From: Rhina ancylostomus
Taxonomy: Eukaryota
Assembly (NCBI GenBank): GCA_030265395.1
Contig: JARFYF010000119.1
Coordinates: 18,749,811 to 18,813,810, forward strand
Direction of reading: 5' to 3'
Length of the DNA stretch: 64,000 bases
The translations under genes and the position numbers were made by a program. Within the stretch, counting starts at the first letter, position 1. Each line of letters opens with the position of its first letter. The notes under the pieces are model-generated. The model saw only the letters and a list, made by a program, of their open reading frames with translations. It did no database searches and had not been told where the DNA came from. This document shows positions 1 through 63,149 of this stretch, piece by piece.

Positions 1-325
1 TATCTCCATCTGCCTTTTTTGTTCTTTTCTTATATTTCTACCTTTCCCCCTACCAACCTGTCTCAACACTCCTGTATCCCCTTCCTCCTCTGGCTCCATC
101 TGCTCATCATTCTTCTCCCCTTACCCTAGTTCCCCTCGTCTGGTTCTGGCCTCTTTCTCACCCCTCCCTCTCACTTCCATTTACTGGCTATCTTCCCTCT
201 ACACTCTGAATTTTGACCCAAAATGTCAACCATTCCTTTGCCTCCACAGATGCTTCTTGACCTGGTGAATTCATCCAGTAGTTTAACTTTTGCTCCAGAT
301 TCCACATCTGCAGTTTCTTGTATCT
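1..325 (+). mobile_element. Penelope-derived 3' segment: pyrimidine tract, decayed hammerhead and tail
   Basis: Same layout and tail (gatgct..tgacctg.tga.tt..tccag...tgctccagattcca.catctgcagt) as 37900-38250 and 54995-55225. Confidence 0.65.
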
Positions 326-1721
326 CTATTTTATACAAGTTCATCACAAATTACTTGCCCTTATATTTGTCATGATTTATAAAGCTATTCATTCTCAATG
401 TTATTTTAAACATTTTGTCAACCTGCTTTCAAAAACAACTGTGCACATATAACCTAATTTTTCTCTATTCTTGTATTCATTTTACAATTATGCCCTCCAC
501 TTTTCATTGCCTCTTCTCATTCTTAATATTTATTTTTTTAGTATAAATATTAGAAAATACAGTTCCTTGCTCCCCCTTGATTACCTGGAATTAGAAGATG
601 GTATCTTACGTCAGGATCCGAAGATTTTGCCTGGAAAATGGGATGGTGCTATTAGGCAGAAAAGCAATGCAAGAATTTCCTTGGATTTTAATAATGATCT
701 TTATGGAACAACAGTGGTACTAAATTGGAGGAATCATAGGTGCATCTGAAATGGAAACAGGAGTTGGCTTTATAGTCCTTTCAGCCTGCCCTACTTTTCA
801 GTGATATCATAGTTGATCTTCAATTTCAATTCACTTTCCTATCTGATCTCTATATTCCTTGATTTCATTTGACAAAATAAGTTATTGTGATTAATTGTGG
901 TTATTAAAGCATCTGTTTAGCTGAGTTAAAGATAGATTTAGAACTGATGTCAGGAAGTTCCTTAAATGAAAATATATTAATGCATGTGCAATTTTTCCTT
1001 CAGCAAGGAATATGCTGTCTTCTTTCTGTCTGTTTCCCTGTACTTATGCCATGATTCTCTTAGATGGCAGAATGATGTGGTGTACCTGTTTCTCAAATGA
1101 TGTAACGGTTTCACACACATTTGGTTTGCATCAAGGGCTTAGTAACTCTACATGTGAATAGTTAGTGTGCTGCTTTGTAAATCAACCTCTACCTCTCTTG
1201 GACATATAAATGGTGTGAATCAATGAATTCTGAAGACCTTACAATGTGGAATGGATACATGGGAAGCAACAACCCTGGATTAATTGAAGAAAATGCTAGA
1301 TAATTTGATGGAATAATGAAATAAGATGAACTGATAGGCTTCTTCATTTATATTTGCCTCAGGAAATTAATATTACACTCCTCACTGTGGTGCCTGACTT
1401 GCTGAGTGTTACTGGCATTTTTAGTTTTTATTTTTAATTTCCAGCAAAGCAGTTTTGTTTTATTTTCAAGGATATGCCATTTGAGTTCTTTGCTTTTTAT
1501 TTAAGACTGTGACAAAGGAACATGATGAAAGTAAGGCTGTGGATATGCTGTGAATATACTTGTTTTCCAAGAAGACGTGATATAGTTATGCAATGCCTGG
1601 CACTAGAAAACAAAAGTAGGAAAGTGTGGGAGTATTTTATATCAGCTACATGAATAGAGGTTGCACCAACATTCAGGTGATAGTAGTTATTACTTTGGAA
1701 GATTGTTTCTAGTAGGTTCTT

Positions 1722-2795: not shown

Positions 2796-2967
2796 AATTT
2801 GAAAACACAAAATGCTGGAAATACTCAGCAAGTCAAACTGCATCTGTGGGAAGAGAAACAGAACTAACATTTTAGGTCAAAGTCCCCTTGGCAGAAGGTT
2901 TTGTGTATTTCCAGCATTTTCTGTTCTTATTTCAAATTTCCAGCATCTGCAGTTTTGTTGATTTTCA
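2796..2967. mobile_element. Penelope-derived insert made of two inverted tail segments, with 13-bp TSD
   Basis: cttgatgcttaca at 2783-2795 and 2968-2980; internal inverted repeat aaaatgctggaaatac / gtatttccagcatttt. Confidence 0.75.
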
Positions 2968-3132
2968 CTTGATGCTTACACTTGTTATACTGCCATGAGA
3001 TGGCACTGGATGGTGCTACATTATCTTACATTTTTCATGACATTGAAAAGCCAAAGGCTGCAGATGCTGGAAATTTGATATAAAGAGAGAAAATACTAGA
3101 GGTACTCAGCAGGTCGGGCAGCATCTGGAAAG

Positions 3133-3176
3133 AAAGAATTGACATTTCAAGGCTATGGCCTTTCATCAGATTCTTC
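3133..3176 (-). ncRNA. Minimal type I hammerhead ribozyme motif at the head of a Penelope-derived short element (about 3050-3172)
   Basis: Minus strand reads GAAGAAU CUGAUGA AAGGC-CAUA-GCCUU GAAA U GUC AAUUCUUU: intact core, 5-bp stem II, GUC cleavage triplet. Confidence 0.7.
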
Positions 3177-4749
3177 ATGTTATATGTTGAAGAGTATTCT
3201 AATTTATATATTCAGTGCAATGTTCAATACACACACTTATTGTTTCAATACATCCAAAAAAATGCACACCTATTAGCATCCATGCAATTTAAACTGCTTA
3301 ACTTTAGTTTAAATTAATGCAAACAATTTTCCCAGGTCTGGTCATTGCTGATTTTAGCTATAGCATGGTTGAGCTGTGGAATTCTTGTTCTACAGCAGCG
3401 GGTGCTGTTCATCCCTTGCTGGGTCAACCTCAATTTCACTGTCCTCGTGCTCTTCCACAGTCTTCCTTAGATGACATTTCCTGTGGTAGGAACATCTTCG
3501 CCCCATGGGATCTAGATCATGACAAATTCCAGTAACTGTAGTTTACTGCCACCTTTTCTGTTTAATGGTTGAATCCCTAACATATCAATTGGTTTAAGGT
3601 GTTTAGCTGACCTATCGTAGAAGAACATTGCTTTTCCTTTTCTCTCTCCCATCTGTGGATTCTATTTGGACTTTTAGGTTTCATTAGCCTTGTTCAATTA
3701 CAGTTCATCAGACTCTTGACTGGCCTAGAAGTGAACCCTGAGATTAGCAATGTTCTATGTGCCAAAAGACTGAAATATGCACTTGTGCATTCTTCTTCTA
3801 TCTTGCACTGCAGAAATTCAGGTGCTTTAACAGCATTCTCCATTTTTAATTGTCTGGTGAACAGTGTGGTGACACAATTGGATAAGTGGATTTCTACTTA
3901 CCTTCAAACTTTGTAAACTTGACTGCCGAAAATTGTGTGCCTTGTCTGAGCCACTGCATTGGGTAAACTGAGCCTTCAGCTTGTGAATGATAGCTAAAGA
4001 TGTGATTATATTGTGGTAGCCAGGGAGTATAGCATAGCCAGTTGTCCAAGTTTGTTTTGCCTTTCTTGTGAGTAGGATTTGCTATTCTGACTTGCCAGTT
4101 TGATGACAACATTGCTTTGTACAAGTCCCTGCTTCTATCAGGAACCTCACTATTAAGGATCAGGTTGGCCTGGGAATGCATATTGATAAGAGGATCTGCA
4201 AGTACTTACTTTAGAAGTTTTGATGCATTAATTGTAAATCAGTTGAGCAAAAAATGGTAGCTTGCTATTGTCCGCAAATTTTGGTGCAATAGTTGTAAAA
4301 GCTAACTTCAGTGGACGCTGTGAGAGTTATGTTGATGGAGGGGGAAGCAGAGACAGTTTCAGGATAATGACTTTCATGAGAACTGATCTCTTTTGAGGAG
4401 AGTTCTTAGGTTCTTGACTAAGCTTGGGTTGCTGGGACTAGAGGTGGGGTGTTTGGCAATTAAGGAGTGGCCCTAAAGAACTCAAGTTATTGGTAGGTGG
4501 CTTCACTCTTGGAGAGAGTGAGCAGCCTGTAGCTGAGTAGAGTTGCCTAGAGTGGGGCTGTGTGGCAGGCTGGGGGCTGTTGGAGGAAAGAATGGGGAAT
4601 CGAGGGGGAAAGGAAGGGGGCTGAAAGGAAAGGAAGTATGAAATTGGAGAGGGGGAGAGATGTGTGGGGAGAGTGGAGATTGTGGGGACCGAGGAACCCA
4701 GGAAAATGAGGCAGTTAGAGGTAAGGATTTTTATCAGTGGGAGAGTCAC

Positions 4750-6260: not shown

Positions 6261-6640
6261 TTGTATAAAGGTTTTCCAGAAAATTTGAGAGGGTGGAAAA
6301 CTGGATTGAAGATCAAATAATATATCATGCTTGTTCCTACAGAAAAGCTGAGAGTTCAGATTGTTTTTTTTTGAGACTCCTGGATGAGGTATCGTTGATG
6401 TTATTTCACCTTGTCCAGAGTGATACTCCAGAGGACACCACCTATCCTTGAAGTGCTTAAATTCAAACTAATCATATTAAAAATACTGCATTGTGGGACA
6501 TATATCTATATTATAGGCTTGCTTAGGAGACGGTGAATGTTTTATCACTGAAATTTCCCACTTTAAGCATATTGTGGGAAGAGAAAGGATATTGGGAAGA
6601 TNNNNNTAGTCTACCAAGAAATTAGTTTGACAGCAAAATA

Positions 6641-6770
6641 TAGTTGTCCTGATGCAGGGTCTTGACCTGAAATGTTGACAGTTCCTTCACCCTCACACAG
6701 ATGGTGCTCAGCCTGCTGAGTTATCCCAGCAGATTGTTGCTCCAGATTCCACATCTGCAGTGTCTCATGT
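6641..6770 (+). mobile_element. 130-bp hammerhead-headed Penelope-derived element with 10-bp TSD
   Basis: cagcaaaata at 6631-6640 and 6771-6780; head tgtc-ctgatgc-agggtcttgacct-gaaa-tgtt-gaca. Confidence 0.8.
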
Positions 6771-7750
6771 CAGCAAAATAGGATTACTTGGCATCCTATA
6801 ATATAAATTTGGTTATTTTTGTGTTTAGAAATGTGCAGTTTAAACATGTTAATGTACAACAGCTGTTATTAAACATTTTATGAACCTTTGAATCCTTTTG
6901 TCAAATAGTTCTTTATAATTTGATATAGTGATGTGCTTCACAGTGTTTCCATCATATATTCAGGAGTGTAATGCTTTTGGCAACGTGCAATTTATTTGTA
7001 TTTAAAAGTTTTTGTCTTTGTTCCCTTTAGTGAGATTTTCTAGTGAGACATTATTAGTCTGAATTTTTTAGAAAATGTGTCAAACCAGCTGGGGTACTGA
7101 ATTCCTTTAATCTTCCTTCTCTGTGAGAAGGCAAAATGAATGGGTGAGATAATCATAAATACTAGAACTCTCATATTTTTGTGCTTACTCCTTTGCATTA
7201 ATGATAATCTAAGAGGTGCATTCTATCAGGGAAGATGCACAAAAAATATTAAAAGGGAACACTAGTCTCCAAACCATTTTTACAGTCTAGAATCCAACCC
7301 TGAAGGTTGTACTTTGAAGTGTTTTCTTTTAAAAATAAAAAAAATCAGAATTTACATTTAAGAGTGTTTAAAGGCAGTGACCAATAAAACATTGATTTAT
7401 TATGTCAGTAAAACTTTTATAATCTTGCATAAAGAAAACTATGTTCAATATTCCAAAAATTAAAATATTACTGACAATATGACCCATTTCTCATCAAGAA
7501 TTTAAGCCATGTTTCTGGTATGTTAATAAGAGGAATGTGTATTCATATTCACACACATCTTTGCAATGTCCCAAAGCACTTTAGTGCTAGAAATTATAGT
7601 TATAGAGATGATGCATGTGGTTTAATGTAATTTATAGAATTTTTGTATTATCTATTGTGTTATTGAAAGTTATTCAAATGACATGGTTGAAATTTTGCTT
7701 TCATTAGATTGTTTTATTGCGTAGTTTAAAAACTGCAAGTTTTATAACAG

Positions 7751-15669: not shown

Positions 15670-17455
15670 GGGAACTTCAATGGGATAGAATTTGTTAGGT
15701 GTATCCAGCAGGTTTTCTTGAAGCAATATGTAGATAGTCCAAGGGGAAGGACTGTACTAGGCCTAGTCAGGTGATTGAAGTTTCAGTGGGGGAATATTTT
15801 GAGTACAGTGATCATAATTATGTTAAAACTTACAAAATTATGGATAAGACTGGTCTTTGGGTGAAAGTATTAAATTGTAAAAAGGCTAATTACCACAGTA
15901 TTAGGTAGGAACTGGCGAGAGAAGATTAGGAATGCCGTATGACATGGAGTCCTTTAAAGGCCAGCTGGTTAGAGTTCAGGATGAGCATCTTCCTGTGAAG
16001 ATAAAAGAGAAAGATGGCAAGGTTCAGAAACCTTGAATGACAAGAGATATTGTAAGTTCTGTCAAAAAGAAAAAGAAAGCATATCTAACCTTCAGAAAGC
16101 TGAAACAGGGCCTTTGAGAAATATAAAGGAAGCAGGAAAGAATTTAATGAATTACGAGGGCTGAAAGGAGCCATGAAATGTCCATGACAAGTAGCATTAA
16201 GGAGAATCACAAGACATTTGATACATATATTAAAAGTAAGAGGGTACCTAGGGTAAGGTTAGGTCCACTCAAGGACAAAGGAGGGAATCTATGCCTGGAG
16301 ACAGGAAGTGGGTGAGGTTCTAAATGAGTACTTTGTGCTGGTATTCAACAAGGCGATGGACATGTATGATGACAAGATTGAGAAGGGATATGTTTTTATT
16401 CTAGGGCATGTTAATATTAAGAAATTATTAGGCTTCTTGAAAAACATTAAGGTGGATAAGCCACTAATGGAATATCTCCTAGGATACTGAGGGAAGCAAG
16501 GGAGGAGATTTCTGGGGTCTTACTCAGATCTTTGTAGCCTCTTTAACTACAGCTGAGGCCCAGAAGACATTAGCCATGCTGTTCCTTTATTTTGGAAGGG
16601 CAACAGGGACAAACCAGGAAATTATAGGCTGCTGAGTCTTCCATCTGTGGTAGGGAAATTATTGGAGAAGGATATAGATCAGTTGGAAATTTGGGAGGAG
16701 AAATGGCAGATGTTGCATTTTGGGAAGTCAAATACAAGCAGAAAGTATACAGGAAATGGCAAGATTCTTAGCAGCATTGATGTAGAGAGGGATCTTGGAG
16801 TCCATGGCTTCCTGGAAGTGACAACACAAGTGGCTATGCTAGTAAAGAAGGCATATGGCATGCTTGCCTTCATCAGTCAGGCATTGACTATAAAAGATGC
16901 ATCTGTGTAAAACCTCGAGTTAGGCCATATTTGGATTATTGTGAGCTGTTCTGGTCACCACATAATAAGAATGTGCAGGCTTTGAAGATAGTGCAGAAGT
17001 TGTTCACTAGCATGTTGCCTGGATTGGAGTCTATTAGCTATAATGAGGGGTCTGATAAACTTGGATTGTTTTTTCTGGAGCATTGGAGGCTGAGGGGCAA
17101 CCTGATAGAAAAATGCAAAATTATGAGAGGCATCGAAAGGGTAAATGGAATCTTTTTACCAGGAAAATGTCAAATACTAGTGGGAATAGATTTATGGTGA
17201 GAGGGGGAGAGTTTAAAGGAGATTTGCGAGGCAAGTTTATTTTTTTTACAGAGAGTGGCACCGCTAGAGAGGTGGTAGAAGTAGATGTAACATCAACATT
17301 TAAGAGGCATTTATATAGACACAAGAACAGGCATGGAATAGAGGGATATAGACCTTGTGCAGGCAGATGGGTTTAGTTAGATTGGCATCGTGGTGGGCGT
17401 AGACCTGGTTGGCCAAAGAGCCTGTTCCTTTGTTGTATTGTTCTGTGTTCTATTT
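15670..17455 (+). mobile_element. CR1 LINE ORF2 fragment with internal deletion and 3' end
   Basis: MGEVLNEYF, NYRLLSL, VVGKLLEK|DIDQLEIW, KKAYGMLAFI, RLRGNLIE; tail ttgttctgtgttctat. Confidence 0.93.
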
Positions 17456-18400: not shown

Positions 18401-19132
18401 GTGCTTCAACACATTAGATCTTTTATTTGTTGTTAATTATTGAGGAGTGGTCAACCCCTAACCTTTTGTGGTAGTATAGCCCCCTTCGCAGTATAACTCG
18501 CTTCGTAATATTTTACAGTCCAGAGAAAGATATTGGAATGTTGTTATGTTGATGCCAGCTCTCTAAGAATGCAATGTCTGCATCCTTTAAACAAGATAAT
18601 TGCTTATTCAAAAGGAAAATACTGTGGATTATAGGAACTTTGAAATAAAGAAGAAAAAGCTTGAAATACTAAGCAGAGATCTGTAAGGGCAAGGAAAATG
18701 GATGGCTACATTGCAGATGGAGCAATGTAATTGGCAGCCAGCAGTTGTTCATCATGTGACACTTTTTAATTCATCTATCAAGATTCCTGGTTGACATAAC
18801 TTCAGCAGTTTTTGGAACTTGCTAGGTTGGGTGAATGTGGTTGCATGTTGCATTCACACCAGGACAGATAACAATGACTTGCTATCAAGCTAGTCATAGC
18901 TTATTTAAGATGGGAATAGATGACATTGGCATCATATTACAATTAAGTCATAAAGGGTTTTTACACCAGGAGTACCTATTATCTTGCAATCTGTGGACAG
19001 AGATATACAGGATGAGAAAGCACTAGACTTCATTCATATAGAAGGCTTCCTCAATTGCAAGCTTCCAATCTCCAGGATGTCATCTTTATCAATTGTAAGG
19101 AGTTTGGAAACACAGACACATGCAATTCTGTG

Positions 19133-19283
19133 GAAACACAGGACTGCAGATGCTGGAATCTGGAGCAACAAATAACCTGCTAAAGGAATTCAGGAGGTTG
19201 AGCAGCATCTGTGAGAGGAAAGGAATTGTCAATGTTCAGGGTTGAAGCCTTGCATCAGGACTGTTGATGCCAGCTCTGAAATG
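19133..19283 (-). mobile_element. Hammerhead-headed Penelope-derived element with near-perfect 12-bp TSD
   Basis: tgcaattctgtg (19121-19132) vs tgcagttctgtg (19284-19295); minus head cagtcctgatgcaaggcttcaaccctgaacattgac. Confidence 0.7.
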
Positions 19284-20859
19284 TGCAGTTCTGTGCCTAG
19301 CTTTCTGGCAGTGATTTTGACTCTTATTTGGCACCTATCCTCATGCTCCCCTTGTGTAACTAAGATTTAGGTCTGACTAGTTGTCAGCAAGGATATATCC
19401 TTTAAATGTTCCTTGTAATTTTTGTTAAGAGTACATATGGTGCTGTACGATGGGTTAACAAGTACCACACTGTTGACAGTGTGTCATAAAACAATCAACA
19501 ATATCCATTAAGTTGGAACAAGACAGTTACAAAGGAGTTTTGCTATTCATCTGGATTTCTAGCTGTCTGCTAGATGCTCTGCAACATGACTATTTGGAGA
19601 GATGGCCTTTACTAAAAGTAAAGTAACCAGATTTACAGAAAGCATACTAAAAGGAGCATCTAGAGATGGAGGAGAAGCATCATCTTCTAACGGTAATGAC
19701 TGCTGGAATACTAGAATACTAGTTAATTAAAGAATGCTCCATCCAAACTCTACCCTCCACCCCCAATATACTAACTGCAATTCTGATCAGCATACTTGCT
19801 AACCTGTCCAAATGCACCTTTCACTAAAATTTATGGACTTTACTTTCAATTCACTACGTGTAAACAACACCAAATCCAGAGTTATCAAAAGGCTTGAATA
19901 CATCCCAATTTATCATTTCATGTAAATAATCAAAATTGCCCTCAGTGAGACCTTGTTTTATTGTTCATTTCTCCAGTAACTACTGCCGAGGAAATAGAAG
20001 ATTGCTAAGCTTTCTTCAGGGACTCTATAGATAAATCAGTGTGATTTCGTCCCTGCTTGGTAACCACACTGGAATCCAGTCCAACAGGCTTCAGAAATGA
20101 TTAAACATGTTAAGATGGTCTGTTTTGTAACCTTAAGCAGCACAATGTGCCAGTGCTATCGGGTTGAAGTGAGGGCATGGTAGAGTGGCTACCAGAGGAA
20201 CAGGCATGGTATTCCCCTGAGAGAGGCTGCAGTGTTACCTACATAGTCTAGACTATTATCTTGGCAGGACACCTCAACACATCTACAACACTGTAATGAG
20301 AACAGAATGTAGATTGCTATGTTCTTTCAGCAGTGTCTTCTAATTTTGGTCCCATAACTAAACTTCCTAGCTTTCCAGAGATGGCAGTATATGTTGCTAT
20401 GGAAGCTGTCAGAGTTATCAGTGAAGACATCATCTTCATATTAAAGGAATTAAATGCCCATGTTGGTCTCCATTCTCTGAATAAATTCCTGTCTCAATTT
20501 AGGCTTATCATTTTCCATCCTTTTCTTGACACCAACCTTGCACACAATACCACAATCTCGTGCACCTAATGTTTATTGGCAAAAGCCATATTTCGTGGAT
20601 TGAGCACCCAACATGAGCATCTGAGTATTCTTCAGTATGGCCTGTTTGTGATCTCAGTTTATATTAGTTGGTATTTTATTTATTGCTTCTTATTCTTATA
20701 CACTTTTAAAACTTTGAGTATCATTTCTTCCATAATTTTTAGTAGCTATGGCAATGGTTGTTCACTCTGTCTGTGGTAGCCTGCAGGTTTTCTTTTGAGG
20801 GACATAGTGTGCAGGCACCCTTGATCTTTTTAGTGGAATTTTTTGCTAAGGGTTTCATT

Positions 20860-32774: not shown

Positions 32775-33105
32775 GCAGCCAGAAACAATTTGGTCCATTC
32801 TGGCTCCCAGTAAAGCAATGTCATCAGTTCCATTGCTCCTCATTTCCCCGTGGTCCTGCAACTTGTTGTCCCTCATCTTCCCATCAACTCCCCTTTGTTT
32901 CCTTTTGCCGATAACCTACACTAAGGGGTAATTTACAGTGGCCAGTTACCCTACTGTATCTTTGGGCTGTGGGAGGAGACTGGAGCACCCGGGAGAAACC
33001 CATGAGGTCACTGGGAGGGTGGGTGAGCTTCACACAGAGAACACCAGAGGTCAGGATTGAACCTGGTTTGCTGGAGTTGTGAGGCAGCGGAATAACTGCC
33101 ATACC
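32775..33105 (-). mobile_element. tRNA-derived V-SINE
   Basis: gtgggaggagactggagcacccgggagaaaccca, gtcaggattgaacctgg (B box), gtgaggcagc. Confidence 0.8.
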
Positions 33106-33145
33106 ATGGGATGAAGCTCAACTGGGCTATAAGCAGCAGTATTTC

Positions 33146-33183
33146 CAGTCCTGATGAAGGGTCTCGACCCGAAACATCAACTG
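33146..33183 (+). ncRNA. Minimal type I hammerhead ribozyme motif (Penelope-derived element, about 33141-33245)
   Basis: CAGUC CUGAUGA A GGGU-CUCG-ACCC GAAA C AUC AACUG; core intact; catca is consistent with CpG decay of cgtcg. Confidence 0.72.
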
Positions 33184-33244
33184 TTTATTTCCCTCCATAG
33201 ATACTGCCTGACCCGCTGAGTACCTCTTTTGTGTCTTTTGCTAA

Positions 33245-37279: not shown

Positions 37280-38250
37280 GGGATAGTTCCCCTAGTCCTC
37301 GCCTACCACCCCACCAGCCTACACATCCAATGTATCATTCTTCTCAATCTGCCATCTACAACAGGAACCCACTACCAGACATATCTTCTCCCCACCCCTC
37401 CCCTCTGCTTTCTGCAGGGATCACTCTCTCTGTGACTCCCTTATTCGCTCATCCCTCCCTATCAATTTACCCCTTCTTCCCCAGGCACTGGCCTCTGTAA
37501 CTGCAAAAAGTGTTACAACCTGTCCCTACACCACCCTGTCTCACCACCATCCAGACCCCTAAACAGCTCTTCCAAGTAAGGCAGACTTTCATACGTGAAA
37601 CCCGCGGTATTATTTATTGCATCCAGTGCTCCCATTGCAGCCTCCTCTACATCGGTGAAACTGGACACAGATTGGCGGACCACTTTGCCAAGCACCTTTG
37701 CTCCATCCACCATGCCAGCTAGGATCTCCCGGTGGCCAGCCATTTAATTCCACTTCCCATTCCCATATCAGCATATCTGTCCACAGCCTCCTCCATTGCC
37801 AGGTCAAGGCCAAATGCAAATTAGAGAAAGAGCAGCTCATATTCCACTCTCCGATCTAATGGCATGAACCTTAAACTCTCAAACGTCAAGTTACCTCTTC
37901 CCTCTGCCTTTTTTTAACTTTTCTCTTTCCTCCCAATCCAACTGGCCCATGCACCATTGTCGTCTCCTATCGGATTCCATCATCTTCAGCCCTTTGTCAC
38001 TTTCACCCATCACCTCCCCACTTCTGACATCCCTCCCACTGTCCTTCCTCCCTCATCTGCCTATCACCCCCCTCACCTGGATCCACCTGCCAGCGCTTGT
38101 TCCACCTCTTCCCTCCACCTTTTTATTCCAGCTATCTCCCCACTTCCTTTCCAGTCCAGATGAAGATCCTCAACTCAAAACATTGACTGTCCATTTCACT
38201 CCATGGATGCTGCCTGACCCACTGAGTTCCTCCAGCGCCTTTGTGTTGCT
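37280..38250 (+). mobile_element. Penelope-like retroelement 3' part: GIY-YIG endonuclease relic, pyrimidine tract, decayed hammerhead
   Basis: RVPLVLAYHP, FQVRQTF, IIYCIQCSHCSLLYIGETGHRLADHFAKHL, PVASHF, LEKEQLIF; cagtccagatgaag...aaaacattgactg at about 38152-38189. Confidence 0.9.
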
Positions 38251-41569: not shown

Positions 41570-42245
41570 AAAACAGCAGAAACTAGAAATCTGAAATAAT
41601 AAAAATCCTGCAAATATTCAGTAGGTCAGATAGCATCTGTAGAAAGAGAAATGAAGTTAACATTTTAATTGATTTTTCATCAGAACTAGAAAAAGTTAAG
41701 TGAGCGCAATTTAAATTTTAGAAGGGTGGAGATAATTAAGGGAATGTTATGAGAAACTGAATGACACAGATGGTGGTGTTGCCAGCTGAGAGAGGATAGT
41801 GAAAGCTTGATNNNNNNNNNNTTGATATTTGCAACTGACCTTTAAGTAGAAGGAGATGAATGAGAACTTAGGAGAGAGGTAGGAGAAAAAGCAACGCTGT
41901 AAGAGTGAGATATAGAACATCACTGTTGCAGGAAATCTGAAGTAAAAGAAAATGGTAGAAATGCCAACAGGTCAGGTAGAGTCTATGGAATGGAAAGAAA
42001 ATGAATTCATGCTACAGGAAGATTACCTTGCATCAGAACTGACTGGTTCTGATACATACTCAAAAGCCTAGTTATCTGATGTCATTGAATTCAAAGGGAT
42101 GTATCATGCCTAGAAGGAAGATGAGATGCTGTTCCCCAGCAGCCCAAAACAGAAGTCAGGGTGAGAGTAGAATGGAGAATTAAAGTGATAGGGTGACTCC
42201 AGTTGCCTAACTCAGAGGTGTTCTGTAAAGCAGTCACCCAATCTG
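41570..42245 (-). mobile_element. Old Penelope-like element with two tail/hammerhead segments and a GIY-YIG C-terminal relic
   Basis: Tails at about 41575-41690 and 41925-42040 ending catcagaact; gagatgctgttcc, ggagaattaaagtga and gaggtgttctgtaaagcagtcacccaatctg mirror 37670-37850. Confidence 0.65.
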
Positions 42246-54994: not shown

Positions 54995-55225
54995 GGGAAC
55001 ACCCCCCTCACCTTGATCCACCTGCCAGTGCTTGTACCATCTTTTCCCTCCACCTTTTTATACCAGCTATCTCCTCTCTTTCTTTCCTGTCCCGATGAAG
55101 GGTCTCAGCCCAAAACATTGACTGTCCATTTTCTTCTATCAATACTGCCTGACCTGCTGACTTCCTCCAGCTTTTTGTGTGTTGCTCCGGATTTCCAGCA
55201 TTTGCAGTCTCTTGTGCCTCCACTC
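54995..55225 (+). mobile_element. Penelope-derived 3' segment with mutated hammerhead
   Basis: ctgtc-ccgatga-agggtctcagccc-aaaa-cattgactg (55087-55124) plus tail. Confidence 0.8.
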
Positions 55226-57673: not shown

Positions 57674-57776
57674 ATATCACAAAACACTGGAGGATCTCAG
57701 CGGGTCAGGCAGCACCTATAGAGGGAAATGAACAGTCTACATTTTGGGTTGAGACCCTTCATCAGGACCAGAAAGA
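57674..57776 (-). mobile_element. Hammerhead-headed Penelope-derived insert inside an older LINE relic
   Basis: Minus head ggtc-ctgatga-agggtctcaaccc-aaaa-tgta-gactg; flanking aaggaaca at 57666-57673 and 57777-57784. Confidence 0.75.
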
Positions 57777-58229: not shown

Positions 58230-59700
58230 TAAGATAAGAAGTAGTAGGACCAGTATTGCATCATTCAGCCCCTTGAGTCTGCTCCACTATTCGATATGAT
58301 TGTGGCTGAACTGACATTCCTCAAGTCCACTTTCTGTCTGTTCTTTATAACTTAGAATTCTAATCAGTAAGGGAATTCAATCTGTCTCGGCCTTAAGGAA
58401 ATGCCAGGACTCTGCCTCCACAGCCCTTTGTAGTAAGGAGTTCCACAGACTCCCAACACTGTGAGAGAGGAAACTTTTCCTCCTCTTTGTCTTAAATTTG
58501 TGTCCTCCTATTCTGGGACCACGGCTTTAATCCTAGATTTTCCCATAAGAAGAAACATCCCCTCAGCATGTACTCTATCTAGTCCACTAAAAATCTTATA
58601 TGTTTCAATAAGATCACCTCTCATTCTTAGCTTTAATAGAACCATAGAACAATACAGGCCCTTCGGCCCACCGTGTTGTGCTGCCATCAAACTACACCTC
58701 CCACCATCTAACCCTTTCCTCCCACATATACCTCTATCCCGCACTCCTCCAACAACCTCTTGAACCTGTCCAATGTATCCGCCTCCACCACCACCCCAGG
58801 CAGCGCATTCCATGCACCTACCACNNNNNNNNNNNNNNNNNNNNNNNNNNNNNNNNNNNNNNNNNNNNNNNNNNNNNNNNNNNNNNNNNNNNNNNNNNNN
58901 NNNNNNNNNNNNNNNNNNNNNNNNCAACATCCACTCCTGCCCTGACATCAGCCACGTCTCAGTTATAGCCACAATATCAAAGTCTCCCATACTTATCCAA
59001 GCCCTCAGCTTGTCACCCTTATTTCTGATGCTTCTTGCATTTACGTACACGCACTTCAGTCCTTCCACCTTACTACTTTGATAGCCTGTGCTCTGCTTCT
59101 TCCCGAAAGTCTCTCTACCTGTTTGATCAAGCTTTTTCCCCATCCCCTTCTTCCCCTGACCTACTCCTCCAGTTCCCTCCCCCCTCACTAATTAGTTGAA
59201 ACCCTCCCGAACCACCCAAGCAAACCTAGCCGCAACCTATTTAATCTTTCCTTGTAAAATAGCCACTCCATGTTCACAATCATCTCAGTGGACCCTTCTC
59301 TGGATTGCCTATAATAACATAATATCATTCCTTAAAAAGGGGAACCAGAATTGTTTAAAAATACTCTTGATATGATCTCACCAGCACCTTGTACAGTTGC
59401 AGTAACACTTCTCCACTTTTATATTCTTCCTCTCAACCCCTTGAAATAAGGACCAACATTCCATTAGCTTTTGTATGCTGATTTTCTGTGTTTTATGTAC
59501 AAGAACCCCAAACCACTTTTGTGTTGCAGTTTTCTCCAGTTTTTCCTCATTTAAATAATACCGTTGTCGTTCATTCCATTGTGGCTGATATGCGACTTGG
59601 TTTTTGCTCCATATCCGTCAATACCTTTTTAAAATTCCTTCATTTTTTTTCAGATTATAGTCTATTTGCCAACATTTTGACCATTCACCTAATCAGCATT
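58230..59700 (-). mobile_element. Older CR1 3' portion interrupted by a young CR1 (58638-59239)
   Basis: Host RMRGDLIETYKIFSGLDRV; insert has 3' tail at 58638 and endonuclease LKCVYVNARSIRNKGDKL...DIVAITETW; tttaat at 58632-58637 and 59240-59245. Confidence 0.88.
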
Positions 59701-60699
59701 ATGAAAACCAAGGGGAGGTGTAGAGATTTTCTTCTGTTGGAGATAATCATCGTCTGTGAGCCCAAACTTTTATGCCGTCCTTGTCTTGTTCCATGCAGGC
59801 ATTGATTGGATCATTTATCTGAGGAATTTTGAATGAAATTGAATGCTTTCCATTGGCAATTGTAATCACTTCTTAAAGTTCAGATAATTAGCCTCAACTA
59901 AGACAGTAATACATACCCTTTTATTACAAGATGTGATTCCACCCACTGAAGAGCTTTCCCCACAATTTCCTTTGATTTCCAGTTTTACAAGATAGCCTTG
60001 AAGCCACAGTTAGCCATAGCATTTAGTAATATTCTGTTCATATTCTATAGGAACACAACAAAAGAATGGAACATGATCAGACTAATTTGCCTTTCAAGAT
60101 TCATGCACCATTTACTAAGATTGTGGCTGATATGCGACTATTGGTTTTTGCTCCATATCTGTCAATACCTTTTTTAAAATTAATGATTGACTTAGCCATT
60201 TATGAGAATTCCAAACTTCTACCATCCTTTACAGTTAGAAGTGATTTGTAATTTCTCTCCTGTATGGCTTGGCTCAATGTATTGGATCCCTAGAATTGTT
60301 GCAGTTGTTTGTAATTTCCCCTTTGAACCTGATCATATTAATCATAATTAGATAAATTTTCTCTCTCCATAAGATAAGATATCTTTATTAGACATGTGTA
60401 CACCGAAACACACAGTGAAATGCATTTTTTTATGTCCAGTGTTCTGGGGTCAGCCCACAAGTGTTGCCAGGCTTCTGGTGCCAACATAGCATGCCCACAA
60501 CTTCCTAACCCGTATGTCTTTGAAATATGGGAGGAAACTGGACTGCTAACATTGGGCTGCTAACTAAATTTGAGTCATTACTCATCACTAAACCTAAGAC
60601 GCATACTTCTTGTTAGTTCTGAGACAAAGACACTCACGTTTAAATTTGGACCAAAGCTGTAATTATGTATGGAGCCACTTGGTCTAGCAGAACCCCAAG

Positions 60700-61160
60700 G
60701 AAAACCCTAAGGCATTCTACAAGTATGTGAAAAGCAAGAGGATAAGATGCGAAACAATAGGGCCTATCAAGTGCAGCAGTGGGAAAATGTGTATGGATCC
60801 AGAAGAAATAGCGGAGGTACTTAATGAATACTTTACATCAGTATTCACCACAGAAAAAGTTCTTGGTGATTGTAATGACAACTTGCAGCAGGCTGAAAAG
60901 CTTGAGCCTGTAGATATTAGGAAAGAGGAGGTGCCAAAACTTTTGGAAAGCATCAAGTTGGATAANNNNNNNNNNNNNNNNNNNNNNNNNNNNNNNNNNN
61001 NNNNNNNNNNNNNNNNNNNNNNNNNNNNNNNNNNNNNNNNNNNNNNNNNNNNNNNNNNNNNNNNNGGTAAGCCTAGTAATTTCTAGGGTAGGGACATGTT
61101 CAGCACAGCTTTGTGGGCTGAAGGGCCTGAATTGTGCTGTAGGTTTTTCTATGTTTCTAG
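60700..61160 (+). mobile_element. CR1 LINE ORF2 fragment and 3' tail across a 100-N gap
   Basis: NPKAFYKYVKSKRI...IAEVLNEYFTSVFT; tail gggctgaagggcctgaattgtgctgtagg..ttctatgtttcta (same subfamily as 1722-1800). Confidence 0.92.
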
Positions 61161-63149
61161 AGATCAAACTGAGTATCAGTGAGCAGGTTGTTGTTGTGGA
61201 ATTGGCAATTCTTTTCATCATTTTGTTGATGATTGATGATGGATAGAAGGAGTTACAAACAGATTTGTCATTTTATAGATAGGATATGCTTGGGCAATTT
61301 TAACCCTTTTTGGGTCCTTCCAGTATTGAGCCTGTGCTGGATTTTTTTTGGCTAGCAGGGCAGCCTCTTCTGGACCACAATCCTCACTACTGAAGCTGGG
61401 ATATTAGAGACCATTGTATTTACTGTATCCATTGCTGCCAGTTCTTTTTTGAAATGATGTGATAAATTGAATGGCCTATCATGTCCACAGAAAGAGGCGG
61501 ATATGGATCATTCACTCAGTATTTCTGTTTAAGATGGGTGTAAATGTTTCAGTCATTTTCTTTGGACCTGTGAGCTGAACTCTATTATTTTTAAGTGTGG
61601 TAATGGTCATTGTGCATTATCTATCCATTTCTCATTTAATTGTTCATTTTCATTCTCATTCATAACAGGATGTGAGTGGATTGCAAAACTTTAATCAAAT
61701 CGGTGCCTTGACTTATTTCAAGCTGCTTCAACTGTTTAGCACAGTGTAAGGTTATTCAGGTAACCTGGTAGTGACCTTTGCACATTCTGTTACAACTTCT
61801 TTGAACTACAGTTGCCTGGCTGAGAGAGATGTTGGGCCATGTGGTTACAGATTGTGGTGGAAAACAATAATACTGCTGCTGATGGGCCACAATGCTTCAA
61901 AGATACCTATTTTCAGTTTCTTTATCTCTTCTGGATCTATCCTATTTAGCATGGTGGCTGGGCCACACAACATGATGGAAGATGGTCTTAATTAGAAAAT
62001 GGGAGTTGCTCACTACAAGAATTGTGGAGTTGTCATACCCATCAATGCTGTAATTTTCAGATACCTCTGTGACCAGTAGATAGGTAAAAACAAAGTCAAA
62101 CAAATTTCCTTACACTTGTTCTCTCACTACCCCACCCTATTATGGTAGCTATGTCTTTCAGAACTACTTGTTGAATCAATTGTTATGAGATCAAGCAAAA
62201 TGATCAATCTTGAAGTCCACCCAGTTAAAAAAAACATTTCTGCATCTTTCAAGTAATTTTCATCATTAACTGATCCTTCAGCTGAGAAAGGTGAAGGATG
62301 TTTTCAGCAGGTTGCTTCCTTGTCCATTTTTGGCTTAATAAAAGCAGATAGAGCCAATGTAAAGGCGAAATCTAGTGATGTTCATAGGATATTGTCTAAT
62401 AGGTGTGCTCTCAGAATTACATCAATGTCAGGTTTGTGCTGTAACCATTTCAGTTTATATTCCCTAAATGTTCATGAGAATATTTCAGGGCTACTGGGCT
62501 TAGCATGTTTGCCTTCTTTGCAAGACAAAGGTTAATAGTAAGTAGACTATAGTGTTTTATTTTTGCAGTTATTTGTATTAAGTTTGTACAATTGAATATC
62601 TTGCCATTTCAGAAAGCATTTAAATATTAATCACTTTGCTATGGTTCAAATCAAAAAAACGTTTAAGTTCAGTAAGGATAGCAGATAATTTTCCCTATTA
62701 TAAGCTAGTTTGGTATTTGATGTCACCTTAACTTTATGCTCAATGTTATTTACAGATTTTTATTTAATTAATTAACTGAATTTACATCCTAAAATCCACT
62801 GTCATGATATGCAAATTTGTTTCAAGATGAGTATCCAGGACTCTGAAGTACTATACCAGCACATAACCATACCCTATACCCTGGTTATTAGATATTCCTG
62901 TAAAAATGCATGCCTAGAGAAGGGGTTCCACAACACAACCTTTTGTATGTGAGCTAACTGTAATGAAAAATGGAATGCATTTGAGAAAAGGGGACTTAAT
63001 GTGAGTTACAGTCTACAATTTTCATTGGAATTATCAGGTCTTTCACACTTGGATATGTGTGGAACCACACATGTATAGTTGCATTCAATAGCCTGGAATT
63101 TGGCCTGAAGGCCACTAGCATGATTTTCTTTTTTTAAATTCTTAAGAAA

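What the first reader, a model, noticed from the sequence alone, without database searches (positions are those of the whole stretch)
6631..6780. Family of ~100-170 bp ribozyme-headed mini-retroelements with their own TSDs
This 130-bp insert starts 3 nt before hammerhead stem I and has an exact 10-bp TSD. Copies at 19133-19283 and 57674-57776 also have TSD-like flanks, and copies near 3170, 4385, 33141 and 41686 start at or near the ribozyme. About 12 heads occur in 64 kb, and the parent GIY-YIG element is in the window (37280-38250). Repeated starts at the ribozyme suggest either a non-autonomous retrozyme/SINE-like unit or RT stopping at the RNA structure. Hammerheads in Penelope elements are known; a TSD-bounded ribozyme-only family at this density in this lineage may be poorly described.
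Basis: partly seen in the sequence, partly recalled or inferred. Interest (0 to 1): 0.72.

Follow-up and report, generated by a model that had tools for sequence, protein, structure and literature searches.

The report
Penelope mini-inserts marking the RNA start
This 130-base insert is one of very many short, decayed copies of the ribozyme-bearing end of a known Penelope-type jumping gene, probably in a ray or shark; many begin at one spot that likely marks where the element's RNA starts, which hints at how these elements copy themselves.

Summary
The insert, its exact 10-bp TSD and 12 ribozyme heads in the window are real. The unit is the terminal module (minimal hammerhead, short leader, optional ~30-nt tail) of Neptune-type Penelope-like elements: five subfamilies, about 240 arms per Mb. 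5' ends are not random: 51 of 184 sampled arms start within 8 nt before the hammerhead core (6.4% per base against 0.8-0.9% elsewhere), with no excess at the ribozyme cut site. ORF-bearing copies start at the same spot, an AT-rich box lies about 30 nt upstream in every subfamily, an extra G often precedes the start (significant in two of three subfamilies), and solo copies starting there keep 9-18-bp TSDs while other solos rarely do. Best reading: reverse transcription primed inside the 5' end of the element's own RNA runs to its capped start, giving by-product mini-inserts. No separate SINE-like lineage and no tandem retrozyme arrays were seen. No RNA data were available. Solo and inverted minimal hammerheads, tails and TSDs of Penelope elements are published; this scan noted the same pattern in other shark or ray genomes. 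Five of the 12 window heads are long copies.

The parts
6631..6640 (+). left target-site duplication (10 bp exact; 6628-6640 with one mismatch)
6641..6645 (+). 5-nt filler between TSD and family homology
   Evidence: alignment starts at 6646
6646..6679 (+). minimal type I hammerhead, subfamily B, decayed: stem I 5' strand 6646-6648, core 6649-6655 (C where A9 is usual), stem II 6657-6668, predicted cut after 6676, stem I 3' strand 6677-6679
   Evidence: sequence; alignment and pair counts
6680..6741 (+). leader after the ribozyme with an upstream ATG at 6701; ends near the first (tail-less) 3' end class
6742..6770 (+). optional ~30-nt PLE tail (second 3' end class)
   Evidence: bimodal 3' ends
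6771..6780 (+). right target-site duplication
19133..19283 (-). solo B copy, homology from 19263 (-5), 20-nt filler, 12-bp TSD with one mismatch at 19284-19295 and 19121-19132
57676..57776 (-). short tail-less A copy, start -13 to -8, weak TSD-like 10-mer
2796..2967 (.). fold-back pair of family C arms (minus arm from -2, tail-less; plus arm from +67, tailed) with an exact 13-bp TSD at 2783-2795 and 2968-2980
3053..3170 (-). solo C copy starting at -1, weak TSD
4335..4387 (-). degenerate head, tail lost
   Evidence: E 7e-4
33100..33237 (+). A1 copy starting at -9 (33142); 33100-33227 including about 40 nt of flank is 96% identical to a TSD-bounded copy on contig C58
37286..38250 (+). 5'-truncated, frameshifted Neptune-type PLE (A2): GIY-YIG region, 3' UTR, AT-rich box 38120-38127, inferred start A at 38153, head from 38157
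41570..41801 (-). long C copy with upstream UTR (does not start at the ribozyme)
41916..42244 (-). GIY-YIG C-terminal remnant (42244-42075) followed closely by a head (42041): long copy of a short-UTR subfamily
55002..55216 (+). long A2 copy, start -96, tailed
77..323 (+). long B copy with deleted ribozyme core
1371..1456 (+). headless C fragment

Best explanation
The insert is a TSD-bounded copy of the terminal module of a Neptune-type Penelope-like element, likely made when the element's reverse transcriptase primed inside the first 95-125 bases of the element's own RNA and ran to the RNA's likely capped 5' end, just in front of the hammerhead. Shown: family identity, fixed 3' end classes, the 5' pile-up, the TSDs, and the same 5' point in ORF-bearing copies. 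Inferred: the 3' UTR of an upstream copy supplies a TATA-like box and an initiator-like YCAGTY, so transcripts begin at its A or G with the ribozyme first; the module therefore occurs at the RNA's 5' end as well as after the ORF; priming in the downstream copy gives ordinary 5'-truncated elements and priming in the 5' copy gives mini-inserts; both ends of a staggered cut (about 12-14 nt) can prime, one at each of the two start sites, giving fold-back pairs with one tail. Mini-inserts lack the upstream box, so most would be dead ends. Ribozyme cleavage plays no visible part in setting their ends.
For: Numbering: C3 of the core = 0. (1) 51 of 184 unselected arms start at -8..0: 6.39% per base against 0.82% at -60..-9 and about 0.9% at +1..+45, Fisher p 2e-17 and 1e-21; 5.45% after moving all doubtful solos to the long class. 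(2) Of 8 ORF-bearing copies that reach the head, 4 start at -3, -2, -3, +1/+3 without upstream UTR, 2 at about -4 to -15, 2 carry upstream UTR. (3) AT-rich island at about -31 to -25 from the A in long copies of A1, A2, B, C, D and in L401. (4) Base before the A, where it is not the family's C: G in 33 of 63 (A1) and 51 of 100 (B) against 30% background, p 1.7e-4 and 9e-6 (hand counts of listings). L1 full-length insertions show the same extra cap G and uniform TSDs (PMC11702581, passages). (5) TSD score >=9 in 22 of 85 solos at the peak against 2 of 86 other solos and 7 of 340 swapped controls. (6) 59 of 74 inverted pairs have exactly one tailed arm, 37 expected, p 1.3e-7. (7) Internal priming at two adjacent sites, extension of both strands and independence of ribozyme cleavage were shown in vitro for an Anolis element (PMC11167929, main text).
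Against: No RNA evidence here. The G excess is not significant in the old C family (36 of 100, p 0.12) and rests on hand counts of the first 100 listed matches of exact-pattern searches. The same spot also looks like a 3' splice site (pyrimidine run plus YAG), and in Drosophila virilis Penelope the intron ends at helix I while transcription starts 121 nt upstream (PMC4209133; PMC2377424). The peak is 4-5 nt wide. Most solos at the peak (63 of 85) show no TSD at the threshold. Only 8 ORF-bearing copies reached the head. The unselected-only TSD contrast is modest (6 of 33 against 2 of 71, p 0.012).
Confidence: 0.65

Rival explanations
1. The fixed point is a 3' splice site, as in D. virilis Penelope; spliced or otherwise processed RNAs are the templates and the AT-rich box is a branch point.
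For: Pyrimidine run plus YAG before the head in all five subfamilies; D. virilis precedent; the share of apparent starts at -2/-3/-4/-5 estimated by hand is roughly what exon-end base preferences (recalled) would give.
Against: No shared exon upstream: 116 solo upstream sequences gave 5 pairwise matches, none a common leader; inverted arms of variable length join directly at the peak; G exceeds A before the AG (33:20, 51:27), the reverse of exon ends (recalled consensus).
Confidence: 0.12
2. A non-autonomous, SINE- or retrozyme-like family with its own short master copies, mobilised in trans.
For: High share of short copies in one B variant (about three quarters of 100 listed, hand count); one likely second-generation copy carrying flank from a TSD-bounded solo on C58; two head-to-tail joins after about 240 nt; pLTRs suffice in cis for trans mobilisation in Adineta.
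Against: Short and long copies are not separated on trees: 16, 20, 21 changes against 19.1, 22.9, 18.7 shuffled, p 0.06, 0.09, 0.95 (low power, about 94 columns); similar divergence; every subfamily has long copies and EN-bearing ones; only 5 same-strand neighbour pairs under 400 nt among 113 heads and no arrays; core intact in 16 of 113 heads.
Confidence: 0.1
3. RT drops off, or a 5'-3' exonuclease stops, at the front edge of the folded or protein-bound ribozyme.
For: The peak coincides with the 5' strand of stem I; modal start is -3 in B (3-bp stem) and -4/-5 in A and C (4-5-bp stem) in small samples.
Against: Does not predict the extra G, the -30 AT box or the TSD contrast; RT meets the helix from the 3' side (inference) and +1..+45 shows no excess.
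Confidence: 0.1
4. The template is the 3' product of ribozyme self-cleavage, or the copies are random 5' truncations.
For: The hammerhead architecture covaries between subfamilies.
Against: The cut site is after +27; starts at +28..+33 are 0.84% per base, no excess; random truncation is rejected by the hazard test.
Confidence: 0.03

Closest known systems
EN+ Penelope-like elements, Neptune/Nematis type (PMC8557442; PMC3846280)
   Same: RT then CX4CxxC linker then C-terminal GIY-YIG with CCHH; partial tandems; adjacent inverted 5'-truncated copy; 30-40-bp tail usually at one end; TSDs; TATA plus Inr-like motif noted in an Adineta pLTR
   Different: Here a large class consists of the head module alone with a fixed 5' point; TSDs mostly 11-15 bp against 8-10 bp in Adineta; the main ORF starts about 167 nt after the core
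Solo and opposite-strand minimal hammerheads of metazoan PLEs (PMC4209133)
   Same: Type I minimal motif without loop 3, extra base after position 9, thousands of dispersed single motifs, pairs on opposite strands
   Different: Attributed there to truncation; no fixed 5' start, TSD or cap signature described in the parts I read; subfamily B has C at the usual A9 position
Anolis Poseidon in vitro (PMC11167929)
   Same: Two adjacent internal RT start sites about 100 nt past the ribozyme, both strands extended, cleavage not required
   Different: Other clade; its ORF starts inside the ribozyme; genomic mini-copies ending at the RNA start were not analysed in the text I read
Non-LTR retrozymes (PMC7229834; bioRxiv 10.64898/2026.07.22.740005)
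   Same: Short non-coding hammerhead units related to PLE pLTRs
   Different: Defined by tandem repeats and circular RNAs, mostly canonical hammerheads; here dispersed solos and fold-backs with minimal, mostly broken motifs
Full-length L1 insertions (PMC11702581)
   Same: Extra 5' G and uniform TSDs at complete 5' ends, irregular junctions at truncated ones
   Different: L1 primes at the poly(A) end, so complete copies are long; analogy only

Membership tests
EN+ PLE, Neptune/Nematis type | single ORF with PLE-type RT and C-terminal GIY-YIG | tested here: met
   L401 open frames of 738 and 212 aa overlap at the contig ends; RVT_1 hit below cut-off for L285; full-length relatives at 46-51% identity carry RVT_1 and GIY-YIG
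EN+ PLE, Neptune/Nematis type | CX2-5CxxC linker before GIY-YIG and CCHH motif | tested here: met
   CX4CxxC and CxxC..H..H read in L401 and other copies; definition
EN+ PLE, Neptune/Nematis type | RT phylogeny inside Neptune rather than Nematis | not tested
   no named reference set was at hand
EN+ PLE, Neptune/Nematis type | pLTR with hammerhead, partial tandem, inverted 5' copy, optional tail, TSD | tested here: met
Minimal type I hammerhead | core boxes and stems I and II with compensatory change | tested here: met
   38 copies: 83.6% of cells paired, 34 double changes against 16.5 shuffled, slid controls 16-43% (related sequences, structure drawn from them); the 6631 copy is decayed
Minimal type I hammerhead | self-cleavage as dimer | not testable with these tools
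   needs an in vitro assay
Non-LTR retrozyme | head-to-tail tandem repeats of ribozyme units | tested here: not met
   5 same-strand neighbour pairs among 113 heads, no arrays; two two-unit joins; sample is 1 Mb of a gapped assembly
Non-LTR retrozyme | circular or cleaved small RNAs | not testable with these tools
   no RNA run was listed
SINE-like non-autonomous family | own lineage distinct from the autonomous partner | tested here: inconclusive
   no separation on trees, but low power
SINE-like non-autonomous family | promoter inside the unit | tested here: inconclusive
   the candidate TATA-like box lies outside the short unit; internal elements were not assayed
Catalogued repeat (Dfam/Repbase) | existing entry with this structure | not testable with these tools
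   libraries not available

The most novel reading that the evidence does not exclude
Penelope-like elements routinely integrate a 'strong-stop' copy of their own capped RNA 5' end, with the two ends of one cut primed at two different internal sites; in cartilaginous fish this has produced on the order of 100,000 ribozyme-headed mini-inserts per genome, some re-mobilised with flanking DNA, forming a promoter-less route to SINE-scale repeats and a genomic record of the PLE mechanism.
Probability: 0.45. Interest if true: 0.55.

Novelty: new member of a known kind. Interest (0 to 1): 0.36.

Why it matters
The transposition cycle of Penelope-like elements is still largely open. If the reading holds, these inserts map the element's transcription start and both priming sites in vivo from DNA alone, link the published in vitro internal priming to solo, fold-back and one-tailed insertions, and argue that the ribozyme's cut does not set insertion ends. 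It also warns annotators that these abundant short repeats are PLE by-products rather than a new SINE or retrozyme class.

Tried and rejected
Rfam scan: 0 matches. Pfam found no family for the degraded EN piece or the second RT piece. Sequencing runs: no RNA holder listed; contigs of two unlabelled runs were laid on L401 and show the family in great abundance with some opposite-strand joints at the same A, but contigs cannot show RNA ends, so this is not used as support. A first search for full-length elements through RT DNA found none reaching the head among 30 loci; the N-terminal protein search did. The first count of earlier findings by sequence was empty. Artefact of unmodelled upstream UTRs: 3 of 168 peak copies have EN coding directly upstream; upstream pyrimidine content 0.47 against 0.73 in long copies; rejected as the cause of the peak. 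cDNA fold-back through stem I as the main source of inversions: inverted-arm ends are spread from -210 to +107; rejected. Which arm reaches further 5' did not depend on the tail (33 against 25). The paper on PLE hammerhead variants (Lunse et al.) was not held, so whether C at position 9 is a described variant is unchecked. Rows dropped: 15 of 200 sampled arms next to N or an edge, 1 duplicate; TSD tests used 218 of 320 arms and 171 solos. Literature searches for a published account of the fixed 5' start; none found in listings or the passages read; subscription journals, Repbase, Dfam and bioRxiv supplements were not visible.

Full report
Observation. The 130-bp insert 6641-6770 lies between two identical 10-mers. 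A profile built from window copies finds 13 arms in the window at E<=1e-3 plus a weak head at 4387; 12 include the head region, of which 7 are short and 5 long. The window lies in a 2.2-Gb genome; the only named protein relative came from the ray Hypanus sabinus, so a cartilaginous fish is likely. Positions below are relative to C3 of the hammerhead core.

What the family is. I fetched 100 evenly placed 10-kb stretches from large scaffolds (844,273 non-N bases) and found 200 arms, 237 per Mb, which extrapolates to roughly 4 x 10^5 in the genome. One exact 17-mer of subfamily B occurs 2,918 times, its reversed control 0 times. Five subfamilies (A1, A2, B, C, D) share the module but have their own upstream UTRs; short and long copies are 80-93% identical to their references. 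Long copies of A1, A2, B, C and D lead up into GIY-YIG coding sequence. A near-intact unit on contig C2762 (L401) shows the order: EN end, 3' UTR, head, leader with an upstream ATG at +51 in another frame, tail, then the main frame with an ATG at +167. RT, a CX4CxxC linker and a CCHH GIY-YIG place it with Neptune/Nematis-type elements; no tree against named clades was made.

3' ends. They fall in two classes, about +90-100 and +120-130 (the reference ends near +125-130, so the second class is read at its limit). This is the known optional tail (PMC8557442, passages), which in Anolis equals the distance between two internal RT start sites (PMC11167929). In 59 of 74 inverted pairs exactly one arm has the tail (37 expected, p 1.3e-7; sampled and pattern-selected loci pooled).

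5' ends. 51 of 184 uncensored sampled arms start at -8..0 (35 solo, 16 inverted). The stop rate there is 6.39% per base against 0.82% at -60..-9, 1.15% at +1..+27, 0.84% at +28..+33 (the predicted cut is after +27) and 0.64% at +31..+45. Hidden UTRs of unmodelled subfamilies explain 3 of 168 peak copies; a conservative recount gives 5.45%. Genome-wide pattern counts for A1 put the bulk of apparent starts at -4 and -3 with shoulders at -5 and -2 (396, 183 and 169 matches; partition by hand).

Why there. Of 30 loci found with the ORF's N-terminus, 8 reach the head: 4 start at -3, -2, -3 and +1/+3 with no upstream UTR, 2 at about -4 to -15, and 2 are partial tandems. So the mini-inserts begin where near-complete elements begin. 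In long copies an AT-rich island interrupts the C/T-rich UTR at about -31 to -25 from the A of YCAGTY, the spacing of a TATA box and initiator (recalled consensus; an Adineta pLTR has a similar pair). Where the base before that A is not the family's C, it is G in 33 of 63 A1, 51 of 100 B and 36 of 100 C matches (hand counts; script check on the 30 fetched loci each gave 14 and 10 G for B and C) against 30% in the neighbouring flank: p 1.7e-4, 9e-6 and 0.12. At junctions away from the peak G was 24 of 93. An extra G from the cap marks complete L1 insertions (PMC11702581, passages).

TSDs. With flank-swapped controls at 0.9% (score >=9, 650 trials), TSDs were found in 18 of 65 peak solos, 17 of 41 peak inverted pairs, 7 of 25 downstream-truncated inverted pairs, 2 of 9 upstream inverted, 1 of 40 downstream solos and 0 of 38 upstream solos. 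A wider window gave 22 of 85 against 2 of 86, control 7 of 340; in unselected copies alone 6 of 33 against 2 of 71. Lengths were 9-18, mostly 11-15. Pattern-selected copies are younger, which inflates the pooled contrast.

Independent family? Trees of the first 94 bases do not separate short from long copies (p 0.06, 0.09, 0.95), though power is low and the short share differs between variants. No arrays were seen, and 16 of 113 heads keep an intact core. One window copy (33100-33227) carries about 40 nt of flank from a TSD-bounded solo on C58 at 96% identity, which may be a second-generation copy, gene conversion or an assembly error.

Ribozyme. Stems I and II pair in 83.6% of cells with compensatory changes between subfamilies; there is no loop 3, as in minimal PLE hammerheads (PMC4209133, results and discussion read). 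The 6631 copy is decayed. Activity is untested.

Mechanism. Shown: identity, end classes, pile-up, TSDs, one-tail asymmetry. Inferred: a capped transcript starts at the front of the ribozyme; internal priming in its 5' module gives a 100-130-nt cDNA that is complete at the cap and is sealed with a TSD; priming from both ends of the cut gives fold-backs. A splice-acceptor origin remains the main rival because D. virilis has an intron ending at helix I.

What is known. Solo and opposite-strand minimal hammerheads, tails at one end, inverted copies, TSDs, solo pLTRs and PLE-derived retrozymes are in print (bioRxiv 10.64898/2026.07.22.740005 parts 1-3 of 5; PMC7229834 and PMC6765202 passages; whale shark preprint passages on Penelope expansion). 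I found no account of the fixed 5' start with cap signature in searches, but Repbase, Dfam, subscription papers and bioRxiv supplements were out of reach. This scan's unchecked notes record the same pattern in at least six other shark- or ray-like genomes; my start-site reading was noted before that look-up.

Verdict. A real, abundant, known kind of repeat; not a new element class. The added value is a testable genomic signature of where PLE RNA starts and how it is primed. Interest 0.36.

Noticed in passing
L401 (G000:C2762:1-3287): A whole small contig is one apparently unbroken Penelope-like unit whose two ends overlap, as a collapsed tandem would; CpGs in the head are retained, so the subfamily may be recent.
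   Followed up: partly
window 33100-33227 and L002 (G000:C58, about 26.02 Mb): Short copy plus about 40 nt of upstream flank shared at 96% with a TSD-bounded copy on another contig; possible re-mobilisation with flank.
   Followed up: partly
L123:7758 (minus) and L260: Two loci where a head is joined directly behind another unit that runs about 235-245 nt into the ORF start; possible template jump or short circular RNA.
   Followed up: partly
window 42244-41916, L118:668, L369: A further old subfamily with a very short 3' UTR between the GIY-YIG end and the head.
   Followed up: partly
window 6649-6656 and subfamily B generally: Thousands of copies have C at the usually invariant A9 position (or a C inserted before it); subfamily D has A at position 7.
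   Followed up: no
P0001: A ray protein annotated as a divergent protein kinase domain 1C isoform consists almost wholly of this element's RT and GIY-YIG sequence; likely an annotation or exonisation artefact.
   Followed up: no
window 58508-59191, 60688-61272, 16781-17200: Open stretches resembling CR1-type LINE proteins (by eye, from recall).
   Followed up: no
window about 32930-33095: Another very abundant unrelated short repeat, hit in most fetched loci, sits just upstream of the 33142 copy.
   Followed up: no
L355 and L356 (C1, 116.6 and 118.4 Mb): Two short C copies share at least 80 nt of upstream flank at 87.5%; likely duplicated with a larger segment.
   Followed up: no
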